A stretch of 64,000 bases of DNA from Octopus vulgaris. Taxonomy: Eukaryota. Where the stretch lies: the NCBI GenBank assembly GCA_951406725.2, contig OX597818.1, positions 46,996,001 to 47,060,000 on the forward strand. Reading direction: 5' to 3'. This document shows positions 19,871-36,135 of this stretch, in pieces. Below the pieces are notes generated by a model. That model was not told where the DNA came from, ran no database searches, and was given only the letters and a program-made list of their open reading frames with translations. Position 1 is the first letter of the stretch; each line of letters starts with the position of its first letter. Both the position numbers and the translations under genes were made by a program.

Positions 19871-20809
19871 ACTCTTAACCACTTGTCACTCCCCAGGTAT
19901 ATTTTAAATTTCAGAGACAAAGGAAATTTGTAATAAGACACAGGTACCTATTGGTAATTTGAACAGTTAAAGCACTAAACTCTTCTTTCTGTGTTGATGT
20001 TTATACCACTCTAAAAACTACCCCATCATTATACATTGTGCCCCTTTATATCCTGTAACCTAGGATTTCATTAGAATAAGCCCAATAAATATCAGTCGAT
20101 ACAATCAAATAAAACCTTAGAAAATGATGCCTTAACACAGCCACATATCAGTTAACAAAAACCAGTGCAGCAATACTGGTGACGAAAAAATCCTAGAAAC
20201 CAGAGTAATTGTCAGAATTATGTTAATGCAAGAAAACAATCAAGTCTTTTACTATATATTTTAAGTCAAAGATATGCCATATTTTGGGATTACCTTTCAT
20301 AATCATTGCTGTTATTGACTATGTGAAGTGTGGGCTGTTACACCCAAGCCATAATATGCCTGACCTAATTGACAAACACACTTCAGCGACTTTTTTCGTT
20401 GAGCTAATTATAACAGCCAACTCACAAGCCATAACACTTAATTTGCATATTACAATCTTAACTCCTAGTTGTAATGGACCTGTGTTCAGTCTGCAGAGCA
20501 CTGCAGCAAGCTACATTGTATGGAAAGCCTATGAATTGCAACAATTGCAAGTACTCTTACATTGAATAAATACATGAAACTTTACAGACATATTCCATAA
20601 ATTAATTTTGCACCAACATACAACAATCAACCCTCCATTGGTCTAACTAGTAGACATCTTAAAAGAAATTGTAAAAATCTTTAAATGAGCCCAGCCAGAC
20701 ATAAGCTCATGTCCTACAGTTTTTCTGATTCATAACTTTAAGAAACAAAACAAAACAAGACAAAAACTACTTTTTAAGACATTTATTACTCTGAACTCAA
20801 ACTGAGTGC

Positions 20810-20938
20810 TCATGGAACAAGAAGACAAGCTCCACCAGCAGCCTTGATTTTCTGTTCAGCTAGTTTACTGAAAAACTTAGCTTTCACAATAACTGGGGCT
20901 TTAGGAATTTCTCCCTTACCAAGTACTTTAAAATAACC
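20810..20938 (-). CDS. RPL27A: 60S ribosomal protein L27a (uL15), last coding exon
   Basis: tttgcag|[42 protein letters not shown]; AATAAA at 20787-20782. Confidence 0.97.
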
Positions 20939-21957
20939 CTGCAAATAAAACAAAATGAAAATTAACAAAAATTTAGGTACAGAAAACAAAACGAAAATTA
21001 CTTGTGTAGAATATTTGAAAACATAAATTTACTTGCAGAAACAACTAAAAATACAAATTATTGATGAACTAACGAAGTACTGGAACTAATCTCGGTTATT
21101 ATATTTTGAGATCCAAAGTTGTCACCATGATATCCTTGGGAATAAGACAGTTGCATCAGTAAAAAGAAAAATTTAGGTGTCGAGTAGTTTCATAAGACAA
21201 ACCCTAGTATTTCGTTTTACCTTTATGGTACACCTGCCTTAAGTGTATGAGGTTCAACTGATAAATAATCCAATAATTTGCATAATTCTCCACTATTAAA
21301 ATTTTGTTGTGTACTCATTGAATATTAACAAATAATTAATTTCCTAAGTTGATGCTTAAACAAAATTTTAATCTTATATTTTGTTGAATTTACCTGTAAT
21401 TAAATTTGCTTTCAAACAGGAAGCTTTTCAATTGTAATCCAAAAATCATGCTAAGTAAAAGTTGTATTTTGTAACTTGTCTAAATTTACGATTATTTTAG
21501 AATTGAATTGGATTGAAACGCATACGGGATGTATCTTGGTTAGAAATATAGTAACAAAAGGGTTAAATTTGGATAGTCTCTAGCATTTTGGTATCACAAA
21601 ATGACAAACAGCATACTAAATAATTTTAAATAGTGAATTCCAATCAACATGTAATTTCAGAACTTGATGGCTCTACTTCCTCCATTAGGTGGCATTTCTA
21701 CCAGTTTGAAAATACCTCCTTACATCAGGTGGATAATGTAGGATAAACACTCTTGAACAGATTGATATCAAAAATGTTGACAAATATGAATATATGTTTG
21801 AGGCTGAAATAGCAACTATAAATTCACTTAGTTACTTTGGATATTCCCCAATATTGCTGTAGCATTACATAATAATATACAAGTTAAAAACTTGCATTAG
21901 TTTTAAGAAGTAATGCATATGAGAGACATGTTAAGAACACTGTACGTAGGAACTTAC

Positions 21958-22135
21958 ATGTTTTACACAATCAATAACTGCTGCTCTTTTGTCACGCCGA
22001 CGTGTCATATAATTAGTTCGGATGTTTTCTGGGACCAAATTCCACAATGAGTCTATATTGATGATTGGGCAATAATAATGGTGTTTTAATAAATGGTAAT
22101 GCCGCATACCAACTTTACCAAAATATCCAGGATGG
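21958..22135 (-). CDS. RPL27A: RPL27A coding exon 4
   Basis: ttccag|C HPGYFGKVGMRHYHL...DCVKH|GTAAGT; 178 nt. Confidence 0.97.
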
Positions 22136-23011
22136 CTGGAAAAGAAAAGAAAAAAAAAGACATTGAAGAATTCCATGATCAGGCTGAAAACACAGGTAAT
22201 AACACTGGATCAATAATTCACCTTTTAACTTGAGAGTACTCTCTGGCACACCACCAGCACTTCTCTTGCTGACTGGGGTAACCATGCGCTGAATCCCCCA
22301 CATGGGGATGCAATGGCAGCTTCGATATTGGTTTGAGTTATTCCAATATTACCTTTCCAATGTTTGTGAAGATACTAACACAAAATGACTATTTTGCTCC
22401 AGTTGACCACGATGTTTGTCCATGCTTGCATGAAGAACATTCTAATATTCTAACGTGATCAATGAGATTGGAAGGGCATCAAACTATAAAAACCATGCCA
22501 AAGCAGATGGTGGAGCTTGGCACACGATCAGTCCTCTGGCATACCAGTGCCTGTTGAACCAACCAACATGATAGCATGGAAGAGGGACGTTAAGTGATGG
22601 TGTGTGCAGCACTATGTACGTCTGGAAATCACATTGTAAATGAATGAATCATGCAGTGTCATTCGTTTGTAATCTTCATGAAAACATGTCCAGCTGTAGA
22701 AGAATATTGCCTTGCTTAGGTCAGTTAGCAAATTTGTACAAGCATGGAAGAGTGGATGTGAAAACCGAAGTTTCATTGAGACAGACATGTGGCCAAACAG
22801 CAGCCTCCAACATGAAGGTGCCAGTTACAACAATAGTTTGAATTATTGATTCAAATACTACTGTTATGATGTGAATGTTGAGGACCATTACAAGAATGCC
22901 AATTGTAATCTGTCATGTAAAACTTGTTTTATGGAACTAATCTGAAGCCCTGAATATAGTGTGTATTTCAGTTATAAGTGTACTGATGAACAGATGAAAA
23001 CATTACGGTTA

Positions 23012-23140
23012 TGATGTTGTGAACATTGAGGACCGTTACAAGATTAATGACTGACCTTGTAGCCGAAGACAGAACACATTTGATGTAGCCCAGGATGTAA
23101 TGATAAACATTCTAGTAATGCCATCACATGGAACTGGACA
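23012..23140 (-). ncRNA. Intronic box H/ACA snoRNA, type A
   Basis: Hairpin GTCCAG/CTGGGC with GTGATGGCATT/AATGTTTATCAT upper stem; H box ACATCA (23086-23081); second hairpin TGTG/CACA with TACAAGGT/ATCTTGTA; ACA box 3 nt from the end; 129 nt; sense to RPL27A. Confidence 0.8.
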
Positions 23141-23271
23141 AAGAATATGAATAATACTGAGAACCTTCAATTATCAACTACCTGACATCATGGAGATACA
23201 ATACCTGATGCTAAACGATGATGATGATGATGTTACACCAGTGTGAATGGTTTATTAAAAAATAGCTATTA

Positions 23272-23402
23272 TGATGTTGTGAACTTTGAGGACCGTCACA
23301 AGATTAATGACTGACCTTGCAACCGAAGACAGAACACATTTGATGTAGTCCAAGTAGTTATGATAAACAATACTTAATAATGTCATCACATGGAAATGGA
23401 CA
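23272..23402 (-). ncRNA. Intronic box H/ACA snoRNA, type B
   Basis: Same architecture; pairing-preserving changes in the stem (GTTGCAAGGT/ATCTTGTGAC); H box ACATCA at 23346-23341; 131 nt. Confidence 0.75.
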
Positions 23403-23780
23403 GAAACAAAACAATATCCTACAACAGGATTCAACAAATTATTTTACACATTTATCACCAAATAATAAGCATTCTAATATTTAATGTCATAGTATGGATC
23501 TGGACACAAACATGGACAACACTCTCTACGAAATCTCAATCACCACCAAGCTAATGATACACGTCTGTTCTGAGTGAAGAAAACCAATGCAAAATAGCTT
23601 CAGGAACTTAATTTACACACCAAAGAAGATTACAAATCGTGAGAACACTGACCTATTAAAAACCACCTAATTTCTCAACATCATATTCACTCTGGAATTA
23701 ATTATGCAACATTCACCATGTATACAAAGAAACAAATTTCCTTCGAACATGCGTGTATACCAGGTGTGGTAACAAGTTAG

Positions 23781-24040
23781 GGTACTACTTGCGATCAGTG
23801 GTCCCAGTGCATGCACACACACAAGCTAGTCCTAAGTCGACTTTTTAACCCTAACTCTAACCTTAGTTTGTTTATAAAGTTTAAAAATTATTTACTTTGT
23901 TCGAAAAATATTATTTAATTTTCTTTGACATGTATTCAGCCCTGAAATACTAAACATACGCACAAGTAGCTGTAGGATCAACCACTTACGACTAGCTATG
24001 GCGGATGCGCACACCGGGACCAGTGTTCGCTAGTAGTAAC
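23781..24040. mobile_element. GGTAC-terminated MITE with 9-bp TSD (Merlin/MULE-like), inserted in a SINE
   Basis: TIR GGTACTAC..CAGTGGTCCC; flanks acaagttag / ccaagttag. Confidence 0.75.
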
Positions 24041-24864
24041 CCAAGTTAGCTTCCCAATGACAGTCCAATCTGTCCCACTGTATGGCACTTGGTGAAAGTA
24101 TCTTCCACTCAGCCCTCGAGACAACCAGTCTTGTCAGTGGAATTGGCAGATGGAAACTGAATGAAGCCTGTCCTTTTGTCCACCACGACTACTTGAAAAC
24201 CAATGCTGGTGTATCTAAGTGCCAGTAAATTAGCAGTCCAGCAAAAGGAACTAATAGAATAATATCAGACTTCCATGCTGGCATGGATGATTTAACCAAG
24301 AAATGTCAAACGCAACTGAACTTTCTTGCCATTTCAAAGAGGGAACTGGAAAAACATATGACCATATCAACATTGCATACATTTAAATGGATGCAAAAAT
24401 CATTGCCTAATGTACATAACTATTTCACTCAAACATCATCATTTTACCAGCTACCATGAGATGCACAACTTATACAAGATTTTTCAGATACTGACCCAGT
24501 GCAATCTACCTGATGACTGAAAACAGATCATTTATTTCCCACTGCAATATTTTAGATGATAACGCTCCAATTTGTATGATAGTCATCATATAGGCAGAAA
24601 CAAAACAGTAGCCAAGGAGAGGATCAAACACAATTTGACATGTTTATCAATATTTAATGCCACAAACATAATATTCTCCAGTCCGTTATCAACAACCTAA
24701 CAAGGAACTATTGTGATTGAAAACCATTGCAAAATAGTTACAGGAATTGACTTTTCATACCAAAAAGCATTAGAAGTTGTGAGAACAATTTCTTTTGCTA
24801 TAACAATTTAGAGCACAGCAGGCAGTTTCATGTACTGGTTTGAATTAATTCAATATTATAGTTT

Positions 24865-24991
24865 TAGTGTTTGTGGTCAAGATCATCAAGACGACGAATC
24901 TTGCGGGACAGCGATTGACCACACTTGATGTTGTCCACATGATTAATGATGAACATTCTAACATTTTAATGCCATCACAGGTAATTGGACA
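24865..24991 (-). ncRNA. Intronic box H/ACA snoRNA, divergent type D
   Basis: TGTCCA/TGGACA hairpin 1, H box ACATCA (24931-24926), 9-bp TGTGGTCAA/TTGACCACA hairpin 2, ACA-CTA end; different pocket sequences. Confidence 0.72.
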
Positions 24992-25395
24992 GATACATGA
25001 ATCTTATACAAATGTTGTAAATGAAAAAAAAGAAAGCAAATAGTTTCAGGACATTTCTTTTGTACTAAACAGCATCACAAATAACAAGGTGTTACCATTT
25101 TAAAGTGGATACAAGCAGGCATACACACACAAATCTGTATATCATCATTTATATATTACACACACCTGTACACCTTAATGCAGTCCCTAACAAATATATA
25201 AAAACTGATGTCATAACAACTACTTTTTAATCAGTAGATCTGCTTAATCAGAAGAAAAATGCAACAAGCATAACTGCTTGTTCAATTTCTAATATTGTAA
25301 GCAACAGAACAAGTGAAAATCTTAAAAAATACTGACCTTGTGCAATCCAGCTACTAACTGAAAACTGACCTAGTATTTACTAAAATATTATAGAA

Positions 25396-25570
25396 CAGTG
25401 GTTCCCAGCTATGAGTCGCGAACGGAATCTTAGTGGGTTGCAAAAAGTTATAAAATTACGTATTAGCTTTAACTGCTGTCTATTGAGATAGCTCAAGACT
25501 TCTAAATGGGCCGTCATGAACTGGTGTGATAAATAGTGGGTCGCGACTCTAAAAAGTTTGGGAACCACTG
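25396..25570. mobile_element. hAT/Charlie-like MITE
   Basis: CAGTGGTTCCCA...TGGGAACCACTG; 8-bp TSD ttatagaa / ttttagaa. Confidence 0.75.
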
Positions 25571-26296
25571 TTTTAGAAGATAACTGCAGTAATCACGTAA
25601 AAAATAAATTGATACAGCTAGAGACCACGGATTCTTATTTTCAAGAGCTCTTTGCTATAAATTGAATGAGTTTTAAGAATCTGCCTCAATGGAACACAAG
25701 TGAACTCTTCACATCTGCAATATCATGACCAGCAGGCTGCCCATTGCCTTAGGGGTGACGAGATAAAATGACAAGATATAATTCTAGCTGCATGTGCCAA
25801 ACAGGCCAGCAAAATGGGACATCAAACTACTGCAGATTTGTGAAATTAACATCAAGTACTACTAATTGAAGGAACTTGGCTAGCAACCCCATCAGGACAA
25901 AGGAGCAAATAGAATACTCTATTCACTTGTGCCCAACAGCATCTAAATGATACACACCATCCATAAACTTCTAACTTAACAGCTACATGGGTAGTATAAA
26001 TCAGCTCATGAGCTGTGAAAATAGTTTGCAAAACAAGTATTAGACATCAGCTTTTTATGTAGTAAATATGAGTAACGTCATAAATATTTAAGTGAACCCA
26101 CTTTCAAATATGCATTCGGCTCAAGAAATTCATGACTACTCTCCAAGCAGGAGCGGTTCATTTCAGGATACTTTATTTAATTTTATAAGACTGTCTTTCT
26201 ACCCATAAAAGACTAAAGTCATGAATTTGGTTGAAACAAGTATTTTAATTATAAAAATAGTAATATGATATAGAATTGGTTAAAATATTGTCATCA

Positions 26297-26425
26297 TGAT
26301 GTTGTGAACATTGAGGACCGTTACAAGATTAATGACTGACCTTGTAGCCGAAGACAGAACACATTTGATGTAGCCCAGGATGTAATGATAAACATTCTAA
26401 TAATGCCATCACATGGAACTGGACA
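26297..26425 (-). ncRNA. Intronic box H/ACA snoRNA, type A
   Basis: Nearly identical to 23012-23140, boxes intact. Confidence 0.78.
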
Positions 26426-26529
26426 AAGAATATGAATACTGAGAAGACTCAATTATTGACTACTTACAATTTATTCAAGATTTATCCAGATTTACCATGG
26501 TAACAATGTATGTTTGGGTAAAATATTAA

Positions 26530-27890
26530 CCCTTCTGTAGAGCACCCATTGTTATTTAAATGTGAATTTGAACACAAATCTCAGTACATTCGTGAAAACA
26601 CGATTTCACTTTTCCCCCACATTTTTGCAGCACCAATTTTTTTTTTTTTTTTTTTTTTCTTTTCCAACTTTGAAAATGGATAGGAGTTTCATGCTATCAT
26701 CAAGCAGTGATTCTGAATTTGAAGGGTTTTCAATGGAAGATATGGAGATATAGAGAAAAAGAATGAGGTACAAAAGCACGTGGTGTATGAGAATGAATAG
26801 GATATTTCTGTATCCGAAACCAGTAATTCTGAAGAAACTGAAAGCAGCAATAGCGACAGAGAGGACAATTTTACATAGGAATGGAGTAAAAAATTTTGAA
26901 ATGCTTCTATCAACAACTTTTCTGGGGAAACGGAGCCAACCCATAGTCTTTCTTAGGAAGCGAAACTGCTAGACTTCATTTTCTTATTTTTCCAGTATGC
27001 TTGTTTAAAGCTATCACTGCGGAAACAAACCATTATGCAGAATGTAAAACAGTATATGCTAGGAAAGCCCATGAAATGGGAGATCAAAGTTTGTGAGTAC
27101 TGCTGTGGATTTAGTTTTTATACAGGGAAGAGACAATAATGCTAGTCAGCATGGCCTAGGGTACGATGTGGTGTGGAATTTATCAATTCCATGCTAAAAC
27201 CAGGACCTTATATTATTTTTGGACCAATTTTTTTAGTTCAGTCAAACTTGCAGTGGAGTTAGAAGCTGTGGCAACGTATACATGTCCTACAGTAATTGCT
27301 AGTAGAAAAGGGCTGCTGTTGGATATAAATAAAAGCAAAATGAAAAGATGAAATAATCCAATGGCAGAAAGGAAATCTGCTAGCAACCACATACTCTAGA
27401 GATAAGCGACATAAATTTCCCATCTTAATACTGCACAACCATGTGTTGATGAAAATGGCACCCCGTTTGTGAACCTTGATAATAACAGGTACATGGATGG
27501 TGTGGATCGGCTGAACCAGGTGAAGAGGTATTATCCGGTTGGCAGACTGAGTAATAAATGGTGGCGATACCTGGTGTAATATATAGTGAACATGAGCATA
27601 GCAGTGTGACCCTCTGCAGTTCCAAGCAGATGTAGCAACGCAGTTGAGGACAGGCTATTCCTCCAAAAAAAATAACTAGAGGAAGAAAAAGCAAAGCCTG
27701 CCAGAGAGATATCCCCGAGTTCAGTCAATCTCCATAAATTAGAAAAAAATTCAAGGGTCACAAAAAGCAGTGCCGTGAATGTCTATCAATAAGGAAAAAC
27801 TCCCAGTGGACAGCCGGTTGAAAGGTCTTTCCAATGTGCATTCTGCAAGGTTGCAGTATGTACAGTGGGATGTTTTACAACTTTCCATGA
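26530..27890 (+). mobile_element. Decayed, internally deleted piggyBac (PGBD-like) transposon
   Basis: TTAA-CCCTT left end; SSDSEFEGFS acidic N-terminus; NFFSSVKL; NRYMDGVDRLNQ...KWWRY; Cys-rich C-terminus (C..C...C...CF..FH); several frameshifts. Confidence 0.85.
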
Positions 27891-28141
27891 TAGAAATATT
27901 GTATATAGGTATGATTAGATTGTATAAATACTTTTCAAATCTATTTCGTTTTACCTTTTATTTACTTGCAACTTTAAATGTCTCATCTCTGCACAGTTGT
28001 TTTCTTTATTACAAACAACAAGCTCCAATACAACCTACTGCCATATTTATGCTATATTCAACGTTTCCACAACATAAAACGTCATGGAGATACAGTACTT
28101 GTTACATCAGTATGAATGTTTTTTTAAAAAAATAGCTATTA

Positions 28142-28270
28142 TGATGTTGCGAACATTGAGGACCATTACAAGATTAATGACTGACCTTGTAGCCGAAGAC
28201 AGAACACATTTGATGTAGCCCAGGATGTAATGATAAACATTCTAGTAATGCCATCACATGGAACTGGACA
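28142..28270 (-). ncRNA. Intronic box H/ACA snoRNA, type A
   Basis: Copy within the duplicated block 28140-28770; boxes intact. Confidence 0.75.
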
Positions 28271-28395
28271 AAGAATATGAATAATACTGAGAACCTTCAA
28301 TTATCAACTACCTAACATCAAGGAGATACAATACCGGATGCTAAACGATGACGATGTTACACCAGTGTGAATGGTTTATTAAAAAATAGCTATTA

Positions 28396-28526
28396 TGATG
28401 TTGTGAACTTTGAGGACCGTCACAAGATTAATGACTGACCTTGCAACCGAAGACAGAACACATTTTATGTAGTCCAAGTAGTTATGATAAACAATACTTA
28501 ATAATGTCATCACATGGAAATGGACA
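28396..28526 (-). ncRNA. Intronic box H/ACA snoRNA, type B
   Basis: H box variant ACATAA still fits ANANNA; ACA box intact. Confidence 0.72.
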
Positions 28527-29320
28527 GAAACAAAATATCCTACAACAGGAATCAACAAATAATTTTTACACATTTATCACCAAATAATAAGCATTCTAAT
28601 ATTCAATGTCATAGCATAGATCTGGACACAAACATGGACAACACTCTACGAAATCTCAATCACCACCAAGCTAATGATACACGTCTGTTCTGAGTGAAGA
28701 AAACCAATGCAAAATAGCTTCAGGAACTTAATTTACACACCAAAGAAGATCACAAATTGTGAGAACACTTTCCTTGCTATCACAATTTAGTGCACAGCAT
28801 GGATATGCACCGATAGTTTCAATATTGGTTTAAATTATCTCTATTACAGTTGACATCTGTGAGCAAACAACATACAGACAAAAGGAATATCTTGCTGGCT
28901 GCTTTAGCACATTTGATTCCATTCAAGTTTTCATGAGTATTCCAATATATTTACGTGAACATTTCTCTGGACAGAAGCATGAATAATTTCAAGATTCAAT
29001 TATCACGAAACTAACAATATACAAGTTTGAGAATATAGAAAACTGACAAATTACATTAGGACACATTTTCTTTGTAATAAACATGAAATCAAAGCACACA
29101 AGTGTATATAGATTGTTATTGTTGTAAAGAGGCTGGATATAGGTGGACACACTCACATTTTTAAACTGTCACCTATTTCTCTCATTCCGTTTGTGCTATT
29201 TTACCAATAAAATATTGAAGTTGTTTCACAGAACCAGTCTGGAGTCTTGACTATTTGAAACAAATATCTTAATTAGAAAAATGGTAATATGATATAGAAT
29301 TGGTTAAAATATTGTCATCA

Positions 29321-29420
29321 TGATGTTGTAAACGTTGAGGCCCGTTACAAGATTAATAACTGACCTTGTAGCCGAAGACAGAACACATTTGATGTAGTCC
29401 AGGATGTAATGATAAACATT
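29321..29420 (-). pseudogene. 5'-truncated type A H/ACA snoRNA copy
   Basis: Keeps hairpin 2, the H box and the 3' arm of hairpin 1; the 5' arm is replaced by the edge of the tandem repeat. Confidence 0.65.
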
Positions 29421-29568
29421 TACATATTTATGAATATTTAAGTAAATTTGTGCTATTTTACCCAACGAAAAATAAAAGACGTAGTCTAATGTCTTGAATT
29501 TAGTTGAAACACAATTTGTGTATTTCAGTTCGATGTACGCTAATGAACAGGTCAAAACATTACTGTTA

Positions 29569-29697
29569 TGATGTTGTGGACATTGAGGACTGTTACAAGA
29601 TTAACGACTGACCTTGCAGCTGAAGACAGAACACATTTGATGTAGTCCAGGTTGTAATGATAAACACTCTAGTAATGCCATCATATGGAACTGGACA
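29569..29697 (-). ncRNA. Intronic box H/ACA snoRNA, type C
   Basis: Perfect GTCCAG/CTGGAC lower stem, ACATCA H box, ACA-TCA end. Confidence 0.75.
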
Positions 29698-30426
29698 AAA
29701 AATATGAACAATACTTCCGAATCTGCGAAGAAAAATCAGCATTTCAAAATCTTAATTCTTCCCACCTACCAAGTTTTCACTTTTTTAAAAAGAAATCCTG
29801 GGACTAATGCAGTTTCGCACCTATCTTTGAAAAATGCATTTATTTGAAAAGTTTTTTTTCCAGATTCCTACGTTTTAGACGTCAGAGATTACGAATATGC
29901 AAAAAAAAAAAAAAACCCTACCACCACTCCCATTTAAAATTTTGAACTTTTTCGAAATTTTTTTGCCTATGGTTTAGATGACAGATTCTAGATGTGCAAG
30001 AAACCACGTTTTGAAACTTTTAAAATCAATAAGTATATAGAAAGGTGTATAAAGAGATAGATATGTCTTCCTGTGGCTAAAAACAACAGTAACACCGTCT
30101 TGTATAGGACCACCACATTTTAGTTGACTATGGAACAAGGAGGGGTAGATAGAGAAATAAATGAATAAAAATGTTCAAAATATAAAATAGAGCAAGGGGT
30201 GAAATTTGAGCCCCTTATAAAATTTTACAACATTATTAAATGTTTGTTTCTCATAAAATGGCTCACATGGGGATGTGGTATATACTTAATTTACCTATTT
30301 ATGAATTTGTGCTATTTTACCCAACGAAAAATAAAGACGTAGTCTAATGTCTTGAATTTAGTTGAAACACAATTTGTGTATTTCAGTTCGATGTACGCTA
30401 ATGAACAGGTCAAAACATTACAGTTA

Positions 30427-30555
30427 TGATGTTGTGGACATTGAGGACTGTTACAAGATTTACGACTGACCTTGCAGCTGAAGACAGAACACATTTGATG
30501 TAGTCCAGGTTGTAATGATAAACACTCTAGTAATGCCATCATATGGAACTGGACA
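30427..30555 (-). ncRNA. Intronic box H/ACA snoRNA, type C
   Basis: Tandem-unit copy, boxes intact. Confidence 0.75.
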
Positions 30556-31304
30556 AAAAATATGAACAATACTTCCGAATCTGCGAAGAAAAATCAGCAT
30601 TTCAAAATCTTAATTCTTCCCACCTACCAAGTTTTCACTTTTTTAAAAAGAAATCCTGGGACTAATGCAGTTTCGCACCTATCTTTGAAAAATGCATTTA
30701 TTCGAAAAGTTTTTTTTTCCAGATTCCTACGTTTTAGACGTCAGAGATTACGAATATGCAAAAAAAAAAAAAAAAAAAACCTACCACCACTCCCATTTAA
30801 AATTTTGAACTTTTTCGAAATTTTTTTGCCTATGGTTTAGATGACAGATTCTAGATGTGCAGGAAACCACGTTTTGAAACTTTTAAGTTCAATAAGTATA
30901 TAGAAAGGCGTATAAAGAGATAGATATGTCTTCCTGTGGCTAAAAACAACAGTAACACCGTCTTGTATAGGACCACCACATTTTAGTTGACTATGGAACA
31001 AGGAGGGGTAGATAGAGAAATAAATGAATGAAAATGTTCAAAATTTAAAATAGGGGAAGGGGTGAAATTTGAGCCCCTTATTAAATTTTACAACATTATT
31101 AAATATGTTTGTTTCTCATAAAATGGCTCACATGGGGATGTGGTATATACTTAATTTACATATTTATGAATATTTAAGTAAATTTGTGCCATTTTACCCA
31201 ACGAAAAATAAAAGACGTAGTCTAATGTCTTGAATTTAGTTGAAACACAATTTGTGTATTTCAGTTCGATGTACGCTAATGAACAGGTCAAAACATTACT
31301 GTTA

Positions 31305-31431
31305 TGATGTTGTGGACATTGAGGACTGTTACAAGATTAACGACTGACCTTGCAGCTGAAGACAGAACACATTTGATGTAGTCCAGGTTGTAATGATAAA
31401 CACTAGTAATGCCATCATATGGAACTGGACA
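31305..31431 (-). ncRNA. Intronic box H/ACA snoRNA, type C (2-nt deletion at the hairpin-1 apex)
   Basis: Tandem-unit copy, boxes intact. Confidence 0.72.
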
Positions 31432-32172
31432 AAAAATATGAACAATACTTCCAAATCTGCGAAGAAAAATCAGCATTTCAAAATTTTAATTCTTCCCACC
31501 TTCCAAGTTTTCACTTTTTTTAAAAGAAATCCTGGGACTAATGCAGTTTCGCACCTATCTTTGAAAAATGCATTTATTCGAAAAGTTTTTTTTTTTCCAG
31601 ATTCCTACGTTTTAGACGTCAGAGATTACGATTATGCAAAAAAAAAAAAAAAAAAAAACCCAACCACCACACCCATTTAAAATTTTGAACTTTTTCGAAA
31701 TTTTTTTGCCTATGGTTTAGATGACAGATTCTAGATGTGCAAGAAACCACGTTTTGAAACTTTTAAAATCAATTAAGTATATAGAAAGGTGTATAAAGAG
31801 ATAGATATGTCTTCCTGTGGCTAAAAACAACAGTAACACCGTCTTGTATAGGACCACCACATTTTAGTTGACTATGGAACAAGGAGGGGTAGATAGAGAA
31901 ATAAATGAATGAAAATGTTCAAAATTTAAAATAGGGGAAGGGGTGAAATTTGAGCCCCTTATTAAATTTTACAACATTATTAAATATGTTTGTTTCTCAT
32001 AAAATGGCTCACATGGGGATGTGGTATATACTTAATTTACCTATTTATGAATTTGTGCTATTTTACCCAACGAAAAATAAAGACGTAGTCTAATGTCTTG
32101 AATTTAGTTGAAATACAATTTGTGTATTTCAGTTCGATGTACGCTAATGAACAGGTCAAAACATTACTGTTA

Positions 32173-32301
32173 TGATGTTGTGGACATTGAGGACTGTTAC
32201 AAGATTAACGATTGACCTTGCAGCTGAAGACAGAACACATTTGATGTAGTCCAGGTTGTAATGATAAACACTGTAGTAATGCCATCATATGGAACTGGAC
32301 A
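32173..32301 (-). ncRNA. Intronic box H/ACA snoRNA, type C
   Basis: Copy closest to the intron 5' end, boxes intact. Confidence 0.75.
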
Positions 32302-33442
32302 AAGAATATGAACAACATTCTGAGAAGATTCATTTACAAACCTCACCAAGTTAATGGCATTCATCTATTGTAAATGATGAAAACTACAACAGTTTTGAGA
32401 AATTTTGTTTTCATCAAACAAAGTTTTAGCATTTTATCTAAAATTTAGTCTGATGTTCTGAAAACTCTCAAAACTAAAAACAGTACATAACCTGTTTATG
32501 ATTGACTTTCCAAATACCTAATATCATATGCTGTAAGAACTTAAATATATTGCTGCAAAAGAGGACTTTTTGCAAGACTAATGCAGATTCGTATCTCCCT
32601 TTGAAAAATGCATTTTTCTGGAAAAGCTTATTTGAATTCCTAAGTCTTACATGTCGGAGATTATAAATATGCAAAAAAAAAAAAAAGTTACACCCCACCC
32701 CATTCTAAATGTATAGTGTAGAAATTTCATTAAAGCAGGTTTTTCACACTTTCTATGCTCATTTGGTTAAACTATAGAAACTGTTTCGATATTGCTAAAA
32801 TCCCTATATTTTTCCACATTTACATACCTACGTTAATGAAATTTCCACAATGTAAGATACATTTAAAACGGGGGGGGGGGGGTTTTGCATATTCATAATC
32901 TGCATATTCATGTAAAAACTAGGAATCCTATTTTAAATTTTTTCAGAAAAATGCACTTCTCAAGGTGAGGCATGAATCTGCATTAGCCCATTTGCTATAC
33001 TGAAGGGAGCCTTTCCGATTCCAGCAGCATCATATTTAGTATGTTGAAGACAATACAATTTTTACAGCACAAAAATGCTAGACCAATCTAACGCAACTGA
33101 TTTCTGTGATAAGATTCCATCACAACCATATGACCCAAGACTGATAGAGAAAAGAAACAGGAGCACTTAATGCCAAAAGACCAAATTTATAACAAGAAAA
33201 ATAAATTGCATGCTATACAATACCAACAGATAGATCTGGACAGAAGCAGCAATAAAAGTACATGGGAACTCTTTACACGTACTGCACCTCATACGATGAT
33301 TCAAGTATCTATGCTTACTAATTCAATCTGGTTCTCCTGGTCAATAAAAGCCCTGCATTCCACCACTCCAGCACCAATGAGAAGCATGCTAACCACCGTC
33401 AGCTTTTGTACTACGCAATAATTGAACCAATCAGATACTTAC

Positions 33443-33552
<110 letters not shown>

Positions 33553-33976: not shown

Positions 33977-34040
33977 CAACTCGACCGTGTCCGTGACTCA
34001 CGTGTCCTCTTAATTTTCTTGTCTTCTTCCTTTTTGTGGC
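33977..34040 (-). CDS. RPL27A: RPL27A coding exon 2
   Basis: ctcttag|[22 protein letters not shown]|GTAAGA; 64 nt. Confidence 0.97.
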
Positions 34041-36039: not shown

Positions 36040-36042
36040 CAT
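36040..36042 (-). CDS. RPL27A: RPL27A exon 1 coding part (ATG only)
   Basis: ...ttctttctcataATG|GTGAGT; completes a 450-nt CDS (149 aa). Confidence 0.85.
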
Positions 36043-36135
36043 TATGAGAAAGAACTCAAAAGGAATACACAACGGAAGTTACGATATATTTTGACATGCC
36101 TAACGCTGACTTCCTGTAAAGAGCTTCCGTTTTAC
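36043..36135 (-). promoter_or_regulatory. RPL27A TCT/5'-TOP start and ETS-like promoter motifs
   Basis: Minus strand ATTCCTTTTGAGTTCTTTCTC pyrimidine-rich start (TSS about 36063-36062); CGGAAG/CTTCC motifs near 36073, 36110 and 36124. Confidence 0.7.

What the first reader, a model, noticed from the sequence alone, without database searches (positions are those of the whole stretch)
23012..23080. 3' hairpin pocket predicts an 18S rRNA pseudouridine at GAGG-U-U-CGAAGAC
Seen: in types A and B the 5' pocket strand is GTCTTCG and the 3' strand is CCTC, starting exactly 14 nt before the ACA box. Known (rRNA sequence recalled, not retrieved): metazoan 18S contains GAGGUUCGAAGACGAUCAGAUACC, pseudouridylated in human at about U1045/U1046. 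The pairing fits canonical geometry: GAGG with CCUC, two unpaired U, CGAAGAC with GUCUUCG. Type C has GTCTTCA, which loses one pair or shifts the register.
Basis: partly seen in the sequence, partly recalled or inferred. Interest (0 to 1): 0.7.

Follow-up and report, generated by a model that had tools for sequence, protein, structure and literature searches.

The report
Octopus intronic guide for 18S pseudouridine
One long intron of an octopus ribosomal-protein gene carries ten copies of a small hairpin RNA that pairs with the animal's own 18S ribosomal RNA and is predicted to mark a uridine there for pseudouridylation, likely the same job that the guide SNORA57 does in vertebrates; it is a new member of a well-known RNA class.

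Summary
Confirmed. Ten minus-strand copies of a ~129-nt two-hairpin RNA with H and ACA boxes lie in the 11.3-kb intron 3 of RPL27A. CCTC starts 14 nt before ACA in 10 of 10. The genome's own 18S carries the motif; U1553 is the top pocket hit of 1,363 uridines. Chance of 11 Watson-Crick pairs: 5/2000 shuffles in this register, 70/2000 over 25 registers; an energy-based null was not significant (11/60). The site is pseudouridylated in human (SNORA57, knockout-proven) and strongly in fly Psi-seq. There is no Rfam match, so SNORA57 orthology is unproven. New twist: the same pocket, with its upper stem slid by 3 nt, pairs equally well with 28S U1957, whose fly equivalent is also a top Psi-seq site, but at a non-canonical 17 nt. 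Type C keeps 11 pairs to 18S and loses the 28S pairing. Neither the mature RNA nor the octopus modification is shown. The scan noted a similar multi-copy C/D snoRNA intron elsewhere in this genome (unchecked).

The parts
23012..23140 (-). H/ACA RNA copy, type A (the copy of the finding), about 129 nt; ends inferred
   Evidence: fold and boxes; model hit
23064..23070 (-). 5' strand of the 3' pocket (GTCTTCG), pairs with 18S 1555-1561
23028..23031 (-). 3' strand of the 3' pocket (CCTC), pairs with 18S 1549-1552; starts 14 nt before ACA
23032..23063 (-). upper stem-loop with two registers: slid (3-nt bulge, 14 nt to ACA) or 8-bp (17 nt to ACA)
23015..23017 (-). ACA box
23081..23086 (-). H box (ANANNA) in the hinge
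23089..23139 (-). 5' hairpin; no significant target found
23272..23402 (-). copy, type B
26297..26425 (-). copy, type A
28142..28270 (-). copy, type A
28396..28526 (-). copy, type B
29321..29420 (-). 5'-truncated type A copy, probably a pseudogene; has G at -15 from ACA
29569..29697 (-). copy, type C
30427..30555 (-). copy, type C
31305..31431 (-). copy, type C
32173..32301 (-). copy, type C
24860..24992 (-). divergent paralogue (type D): related 5' hairpin and H box, different 3' hairpin
22136..33442 (-). RPL27A (uL15) intron 3, 11,307 nt, host of all copies
   Evidence: GT-AG ends; exon 3-exon 4 join seen as loose end at 22135 in runs X1 and X13
36040..36042 (-). RPL27A start codon, end of exon 1 (inferred)
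33977..34040 (-). RPL27A exon 2
33443..33518 (-). RPL27A exon 3
21958..22135 (-). RPL27A exon 4
20810..20938 (-). RPL27A exon 5, coding part (end approximate)

Best explanation
These are ten copies of a hairpin-hinge-hairpin RNA with H and ACA boxes inside intron 3 of RPL27A, likely a box H/ACA snoRNA whose 3' pocket pairs with the genome's own 18S rRNA and is predicted to guide pseudouridylation of U1553 (human U1045). Shown: copies, boxes, spacing, host gene and its splicing, complementarity. Inferred from the class: the RNA is cut out of the spliced intron, bound by dyskerin/NOP10/NHP2/GAR1, and on binding 18S its loose upper stem slides into the register that puts U1553 14 nt above ACA. 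It works like the 3' hairpin of vertebrate SNORA57 and may descend from the same ancestor. Type C likely still works on U1553 with three unpaired target bases; whether U1554 (human 1046) is also modified by it is open.
For: 10 of 10 copies keep CCTC at 14 nt from ACA and an ANANNA hinge. 18S U1553 is the best site of 1,363 U in 18S, 28S, 5.8S, U2 and U6: 12 pairs against 8 for the runner-up in that register; 5 of 2000 shuffles give 11 Watson-Crick pairs in this register. The identical substrate stretch was modified by SNORA57 in yeast (PMC6984369 supplement); SNORA57 knockout abolishes Psi1045/1046 (PMC8763049). Both uridines are rank-1 Psi-seq sites in fly 18S (CMC stop ratio 0.23-0.71 and 0.44-0.73 against mock 0.02-0.04 and 0.01; PMC9997552 Table S3), so the modification reaches protostomes. 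Host is sense-strand, spliced and abundant in runs X1 and X13; human RPL27A is also an H/ACA host (PMC13736004). Copies are more alike in the RNA than in 60-nt flanks (e.g. 117/129 against 42/54 and 33/54). Type C and the truncated copy keep the 18S pairing but break the 28S pairing.
Against: No Rfam match at gathering or at E up to 10; RF00191 finds nothing in the genome, though only 42 candidates were scored and no control rang. Nulls are modest once registers and G-U pairs are free: 70/2000, 5/100 and 6/100, 11/60. Folding z-scores are weak (-1.30, -1.80, -0.61). No pair shows a two-sided compensatory change. Guide positions vary at 1 of 11 against 15 of 64 elsewhere, too few to be significant. 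The canonical register is not the lowest-energy stem, above all in type B (-11.5 against -21.1 kcal/mol). The lower stem has only 4 pairs. The fly study over-calls (735 rRNA sites), and adjacent stops can be stutter. No mature RNA or octopus pseudouridine is shown.
Confidence: 0.75

Rival explanations
1. The pocket also (or instead) guides 28S U1957, using the unslid 8-bp upper stem; paralogues divide the work (B leaning to 28S, C to 18S only, A both).
For: 28S U1957 gives 11 Watson-Crick pairs (4 + 7) flush against the lowest-energy stem; complex energies equal the 18S ones for A and B (-18.0 and -21.4 against -17.7 and -21.1). The positionally equivalent fly 28S uridine (M21017 4976) is a rank-1 Psi-seq site (0.31-0.63 against mock 0.04-0.10). 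Type B has a perfect 8-bp stem.
Against: 17 nt to ACA is outside 15 +/- 1, and one added nucleotide killed a SCARNA15 pocket (PMC5733568). Human 28S has no pseudouridine between 1849 and 2495 (PMC6182160). The two sites share 9 bases, and a second 11-pair site arises in 3.5% of shuffles. 5 of 10 copies have lost the pairing.
Confidence: 0.12
2. Real H/ACA RNA, but most copies are redundant or decaying duplicates and only one or a few are active; several RNAs in one intron may yield snoRNA-ended long RNAs rather than mature guides.
For: Tandem 860-880-nt duplication units and a truncated copy; remnants near 22860 and 23440; two snoRNAs in one intron can give sno-lncRNAs (PMC11028025).
Against: 9 of 10 copies keep both boxes and both hairpins; RNA part conserved above flanks. 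This rival is compatible with the best explanation for the active copies.
Confidence: 0.3
3. Not a guide RNA: an ordinary intronic repeat whose rRNA match is chance, or a plus-strand C/D-like RNA.
For: No Rfam hit; weak folding z-scores; energy null 11/60.
Against: Boxes, two hairpins, 14-nt spacing, sense orientation in a ribosomal-protein intron and a hit on a known modified site all coincide. Plus-strand C/D matches are all E > 1 and antisense to the host.
Confidence: 0.05

Closest known systems
Vertebrate SNORA57 / U99 (Rfam RF00191)
   Same: 3' pocket aimed at 18S 1045(/1046), same substrate stretch. Loose upper stem with alternative registers. The paper's 124-UUC-126 deletion and U125A change would fall at -20 to -18 and -19 from ACA if ACA starts at nt 144 of the 149-nt RNA (length); the octopus bulge and mismatch lie at exactly those places. 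This is inferred from numbering; the figure could not be seen.
   Different: No Rfam match; about 129 against 149 nt; 5' pocket does not pair with the 1004-equivalent (18S U1512 not among top hits); host RPL27A rather than the non-coding gene antisense to C11orf48 (PMC1687206); ten copies rather than one; base at -15 is U, so no Watson-Crick register for 1046.
Human SNORA3A in RPL27A
   Same: H/ACA guide in the same host gene (PMC13736004).
   Different: No Rfam match in the window; its 28S targets (recalled) are not the predicted ones here.
Intronic snoRNA clusters
   Same: Several snoRNAs in one intron are a known minority arrangement (PMC11028025); multi-copy H/ACA clusters in Drosophila introns (recalled).
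   Different: Ten near-identical copies of one guide in an 11-kb intron, against the usual one per intron.

Membership tests
box H/ACA snoRNA | hairpin-hinge-hairpin-tail fold | tested here: met
   MFE and centroid for types A and B; type C MFE misfolds the 3' lower stem; z-scores weak
box H/ACA snoRNA | H box ANANNA in the hinge and ACA near the 3' end | tested here: met
   10 of 10 copies
box H/ACA snoRNA | bipartite guide, at least 8 pairs with at least 3 each side of an unpaired U-N | tested here: met
   4 + 8 with 18S U1553; rule from PMC7991803, PMC6049503
box H/ACA snoRNA | 15 +/- 1 nt from box to target | tested here: met
   14 nt between stem base and ACA, needs the slid stem register
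box H/ACA snoRNA | sense-strand in an intron of an expressed host | tested here: met
   RPL27A intron 3, spliced in X1 and X13
box H/ACA snoRNA | compensatory changes in stems | tested here: inconclusive
   0 two-sided changes, 95% of cells paired; copies are young
box H/ACA snoRNA | mature RNA ending 3 nt after ACA, bound by dyskerin | not testable with these tools
   only assembled contigs were offered
box H/ACA snoRNA | target U is pseudouridine and depends on the guide | not testable with these tools
   shown in human and indicated in fly only
SNORA57 (RF00191) | match to the Rfam model | tested here: not met
   no hit at E up to 10; weak test
SNORA57 (RF00191) | 3' pocket guides 18S 1045 | tested here: met
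   by complementarity
SNORA57 (RF00191) | same pocket also guides 1046 | tested here: inconclusive
   needs a U-U mismatch in 9 of 10 copies; pairs only in the truncated copy
SNORA57 (RF00191) | 5' pocket guides 18S 1004 | tested here: not met
   octopus 18S is diverged there and the site is not among top hits
SNORA3 (human RPL27A-hosted) | match to the Rfam model | tested here: not met

The most novel reading that the evidence does not exclude
A protostome SNORA57-lineage guide whose single 3' pocket slides its upper stem by 3 nt to serve two different rRNAs (18S U1553/1554 and 28S U1957), with the tandem paralogues splitting these jobs between them.
Probability: 0.1. Interest if true: 0.65.

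Novelty: new member of a known kind. Interest (0 to 1): 0.38.

Why it matters
It supplies a candidate invertebrate guide for a modification pair so far tied to a guide only in vertebrates (no paper found), and with the fly data suggests the pair is older than vertebrates. It gives a natural allelic series (types A, B, C) for testing pocket rules and dual guiding. The class, mechanism and host type are all known, so the general surprise is modest.

Tried and rejected
Rfam scans of the window, the cluster, two copies and flanking loci: nothing significant. RF00191 on the genome: no hit, weak test. Metagenome pattern scan: one hit, a chance match at the end of a bacterial-type ORF. Sequencing runs: no RNA holder listed on record; X1 and X13 behave as RNA (spliced joints), but contig depth over the copies is inflated by collapse and says nothing on the mature RNA; reads were laid on 20000-29860 only, so three type C copies and exons 1-3 were not covered. 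5' pocket: best sites 18S U1854 and U1364 (equivalent to human 1347 and 863 by recalled numbering) are matched by 10-23 of 100 shuffles, rejected as evidence. Type D 3' pocket: best site matched by 13 of 100 shuffles. U1, U4, U5 and minor snRNAs were not scanned. Pfam on single exons: 0 of 3 hits; host named by PDB match instead. SNORA57 sequence could not be obtained: Fig. S4 of PMC8763049 is a picture, primers lie outside the RNA, PMC1687206 supplements held no text, two of the PMC4914119 files were not searched. The octopus ribosome preprint has no word on pseudouridine or snoRNA in its main text; its supplements were not seen. No homologue from another mollusc genome could be searched.

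Full report
Observation. The described strands are on the minus strand. A pattern for the two pocket strands finds 10 copies between 23028 and 32231, all minus, against 0.70 expected. In 10 of 10, CCTC starts 14 nt before ACA; 6 have GTCTTCG and 4 GTCTTCA. Upstream lie an ANANNA hinge and a second hairpin, giving a ~129-nt hairpin-hinge-hairpin-tail RNA. Nine copies are complete and one lacks most of its 5' hairpin. A model built from the copies also finds a divergent paralogue near 24860-24992 and three weak remnants (the paralogue was in the training alignment). Two partial copies lie on other contigs.

Host. The copies sit in an 11,307-nt intron of a five-exon minus-strand gene with GT-AG junctions. 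Exon 4 matches uL15/RPL27A, best to PDB 9EHO chain a, 57 of 59 identical, E 2.7e-37; 9EHO is the octopus ribosome (PMC13321053, passages). Runs X1 and X13 show the exon 4-5 joint at depth 6518 and 5211, absent from X18 and X19, and a loose end at 22135 that reads as the end of exon 3, so this intron is spliced out. Human RPL27A hosts the H/ACA guide SNORA3A (PMC13736004, one passage).

Target. The motif occurs 25 times in the genome, 8 in an array on C20. One array unit holds 18S (2,643 nt), 5.8S and 28S; the target U is 18S 1553. Scanning 1,363 uridines of 18S, 28S, 5.8S, U2 and U6, the 14-nt register gives U1553 with 4 + 8 pairs, the next site 8 pairs. Dinucleotide shuffles give 11 Watson-Crick pairs in 5 of 2000 cases for that register and 70 of 2000 over 25 registers. 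Looser scores are weaker: 5/100 and 6/100 for types A and B and 11/60 by stacking energy with free G-U pairs. The statistical case alone is therefore modest; it becomes strong because the site is a known one. Human 18S has Psi1045 (92%) and Psi1046 (100%) (PMC6182160, table passages). Deleting SNORA57 abolishes both and its 3' loop guides both by alternative pairings (PMC8763049, passages and sections 8 and 11). The yeast test substrate equals the octopus stretch (PMC6984369 supplement rows). In fly Psi-seq both uridines are rank 1 in all 11 libraries shown (PMC9997552 Table S3 rows); that study calls far more sites than were known, so only the top rank counts.

Geometry. For the canonical pocket the upper stem must slide by 3 nt, leaving a 3-nt bulge at -20 to -18 from ACA; the lowest-energy stem instead has a mismatch at -19 and leaves three guide bases unpaired. 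The SNORA57 paper describes a loose distal stem and mutants at 124-126 and 125 that favour either configuration. With the 149-nt length and ACA assumed at nt 144, those are the same offsets. This hints at common descent, but it rests on an assumed numbering, and Rfam shows no match, the 5' pocket does not address the 1004-equivalent, and the host differs (PMC1687206, passages). So: works like SNORA57's 3' hairpin; membership not established.

Type C. The G-to-A change removes the pair next to the unpaired dinucleotide, leaving 4 + 7 pairs and three unpaired target bases; a second change strengthens the slid stem. Pockets tolerate up to four unpaired bases and modify the 5'-most U, and one flanking mismatch is tolerated with extensive pairing but not at 9 pairs (PMC6049503, passages). 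Type C is thus likely still aimed at U1553, perhaps less efficiently. A strict scan finds no target for it.

Rival target. The unslid stem gives 11 Watson-Crick pairs with 28S U1957, with energies equal to the 18S complex for types A and B, and the aligned fly 28S uridine is also rank 1. Against it: 17 nt to ACA where 15 +/- 1 is the rule and one extra base can kill a pocket (PMC5733568, PMC7991803, PMC8522698, passages); no human pseudouridine in that part of 28S (position mapped by a recalled landmark); and loss of the pairing in the four type C copies and the truncated copy. I rate it about 0.1.

Selection. Copies are more alike within the RNA than in 60-nt flanks, but flanks are partly non-homologous; guide bases vary at 1 of 11 against 15 of 64 (not significant); no two-sided compensatory change exists.

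Literature. Searches for snoRNA + octopus + pseudouridylation, SNORA57/U99 conservation and fly or orthologue names found no invertebrate guide for this site; subscription journals are not covered. Clusters of snoRNAs in one intron are known as a minority pattern (PMC11028025, passages).

Verdict. Real feature, prediction well supported, new member of a known kind; interest 0.38. The sliding-stem, two-rRNA reading is the one worth a bench test.

Noticed in passing
window 24860-24992 (-): Divergent paralogue with the same 5' hairpin and H box but a different, well-folded 3' hairpin (9-bp lower stem, z -2.45); looks like a distinct orphan H/ACA RNA.
   Followed up: partly
L025 2746-3101 (G000:C27): 3'-truncated copy fused to a common repeat, the whole ~340 nt flanked by a 17-nt direct repeat; looks like a chimeric retroposed copy.
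   Followed up: partly
L026 about 2933-2989 (G000:C3): Decayed fragment of the 3' hairpin elsewhere in the genome.
   Followed up: no
window 23099, 23106, 23160: Runs of organisms C and D differ here; two changes fall in the 3' side of the 5' hairpin, fitting a weakly constrained 5' pocket (table cut).
   Followed up: no
L007 6689-9331 (-): 18S is 2,643 nt and diverged around the human 1004 site, which would demand co-changed guides.
   Followed up: no
window 29469-32372: Type C copies lie in tandem units of about 860-880 nt, up to 97-99% identical, a very recent amplification.
   Followed up: partly
window 36040-36070 (-): Pyrimidine-rich 5' end before the start codon, as expected for a ribosomal-protein (TOP) mRNA.
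   Followed up: no
G000: Many dispersed 18S fragments and at least 48 scored U2 and 48 U6 matches across contigs.
   Followed up: no
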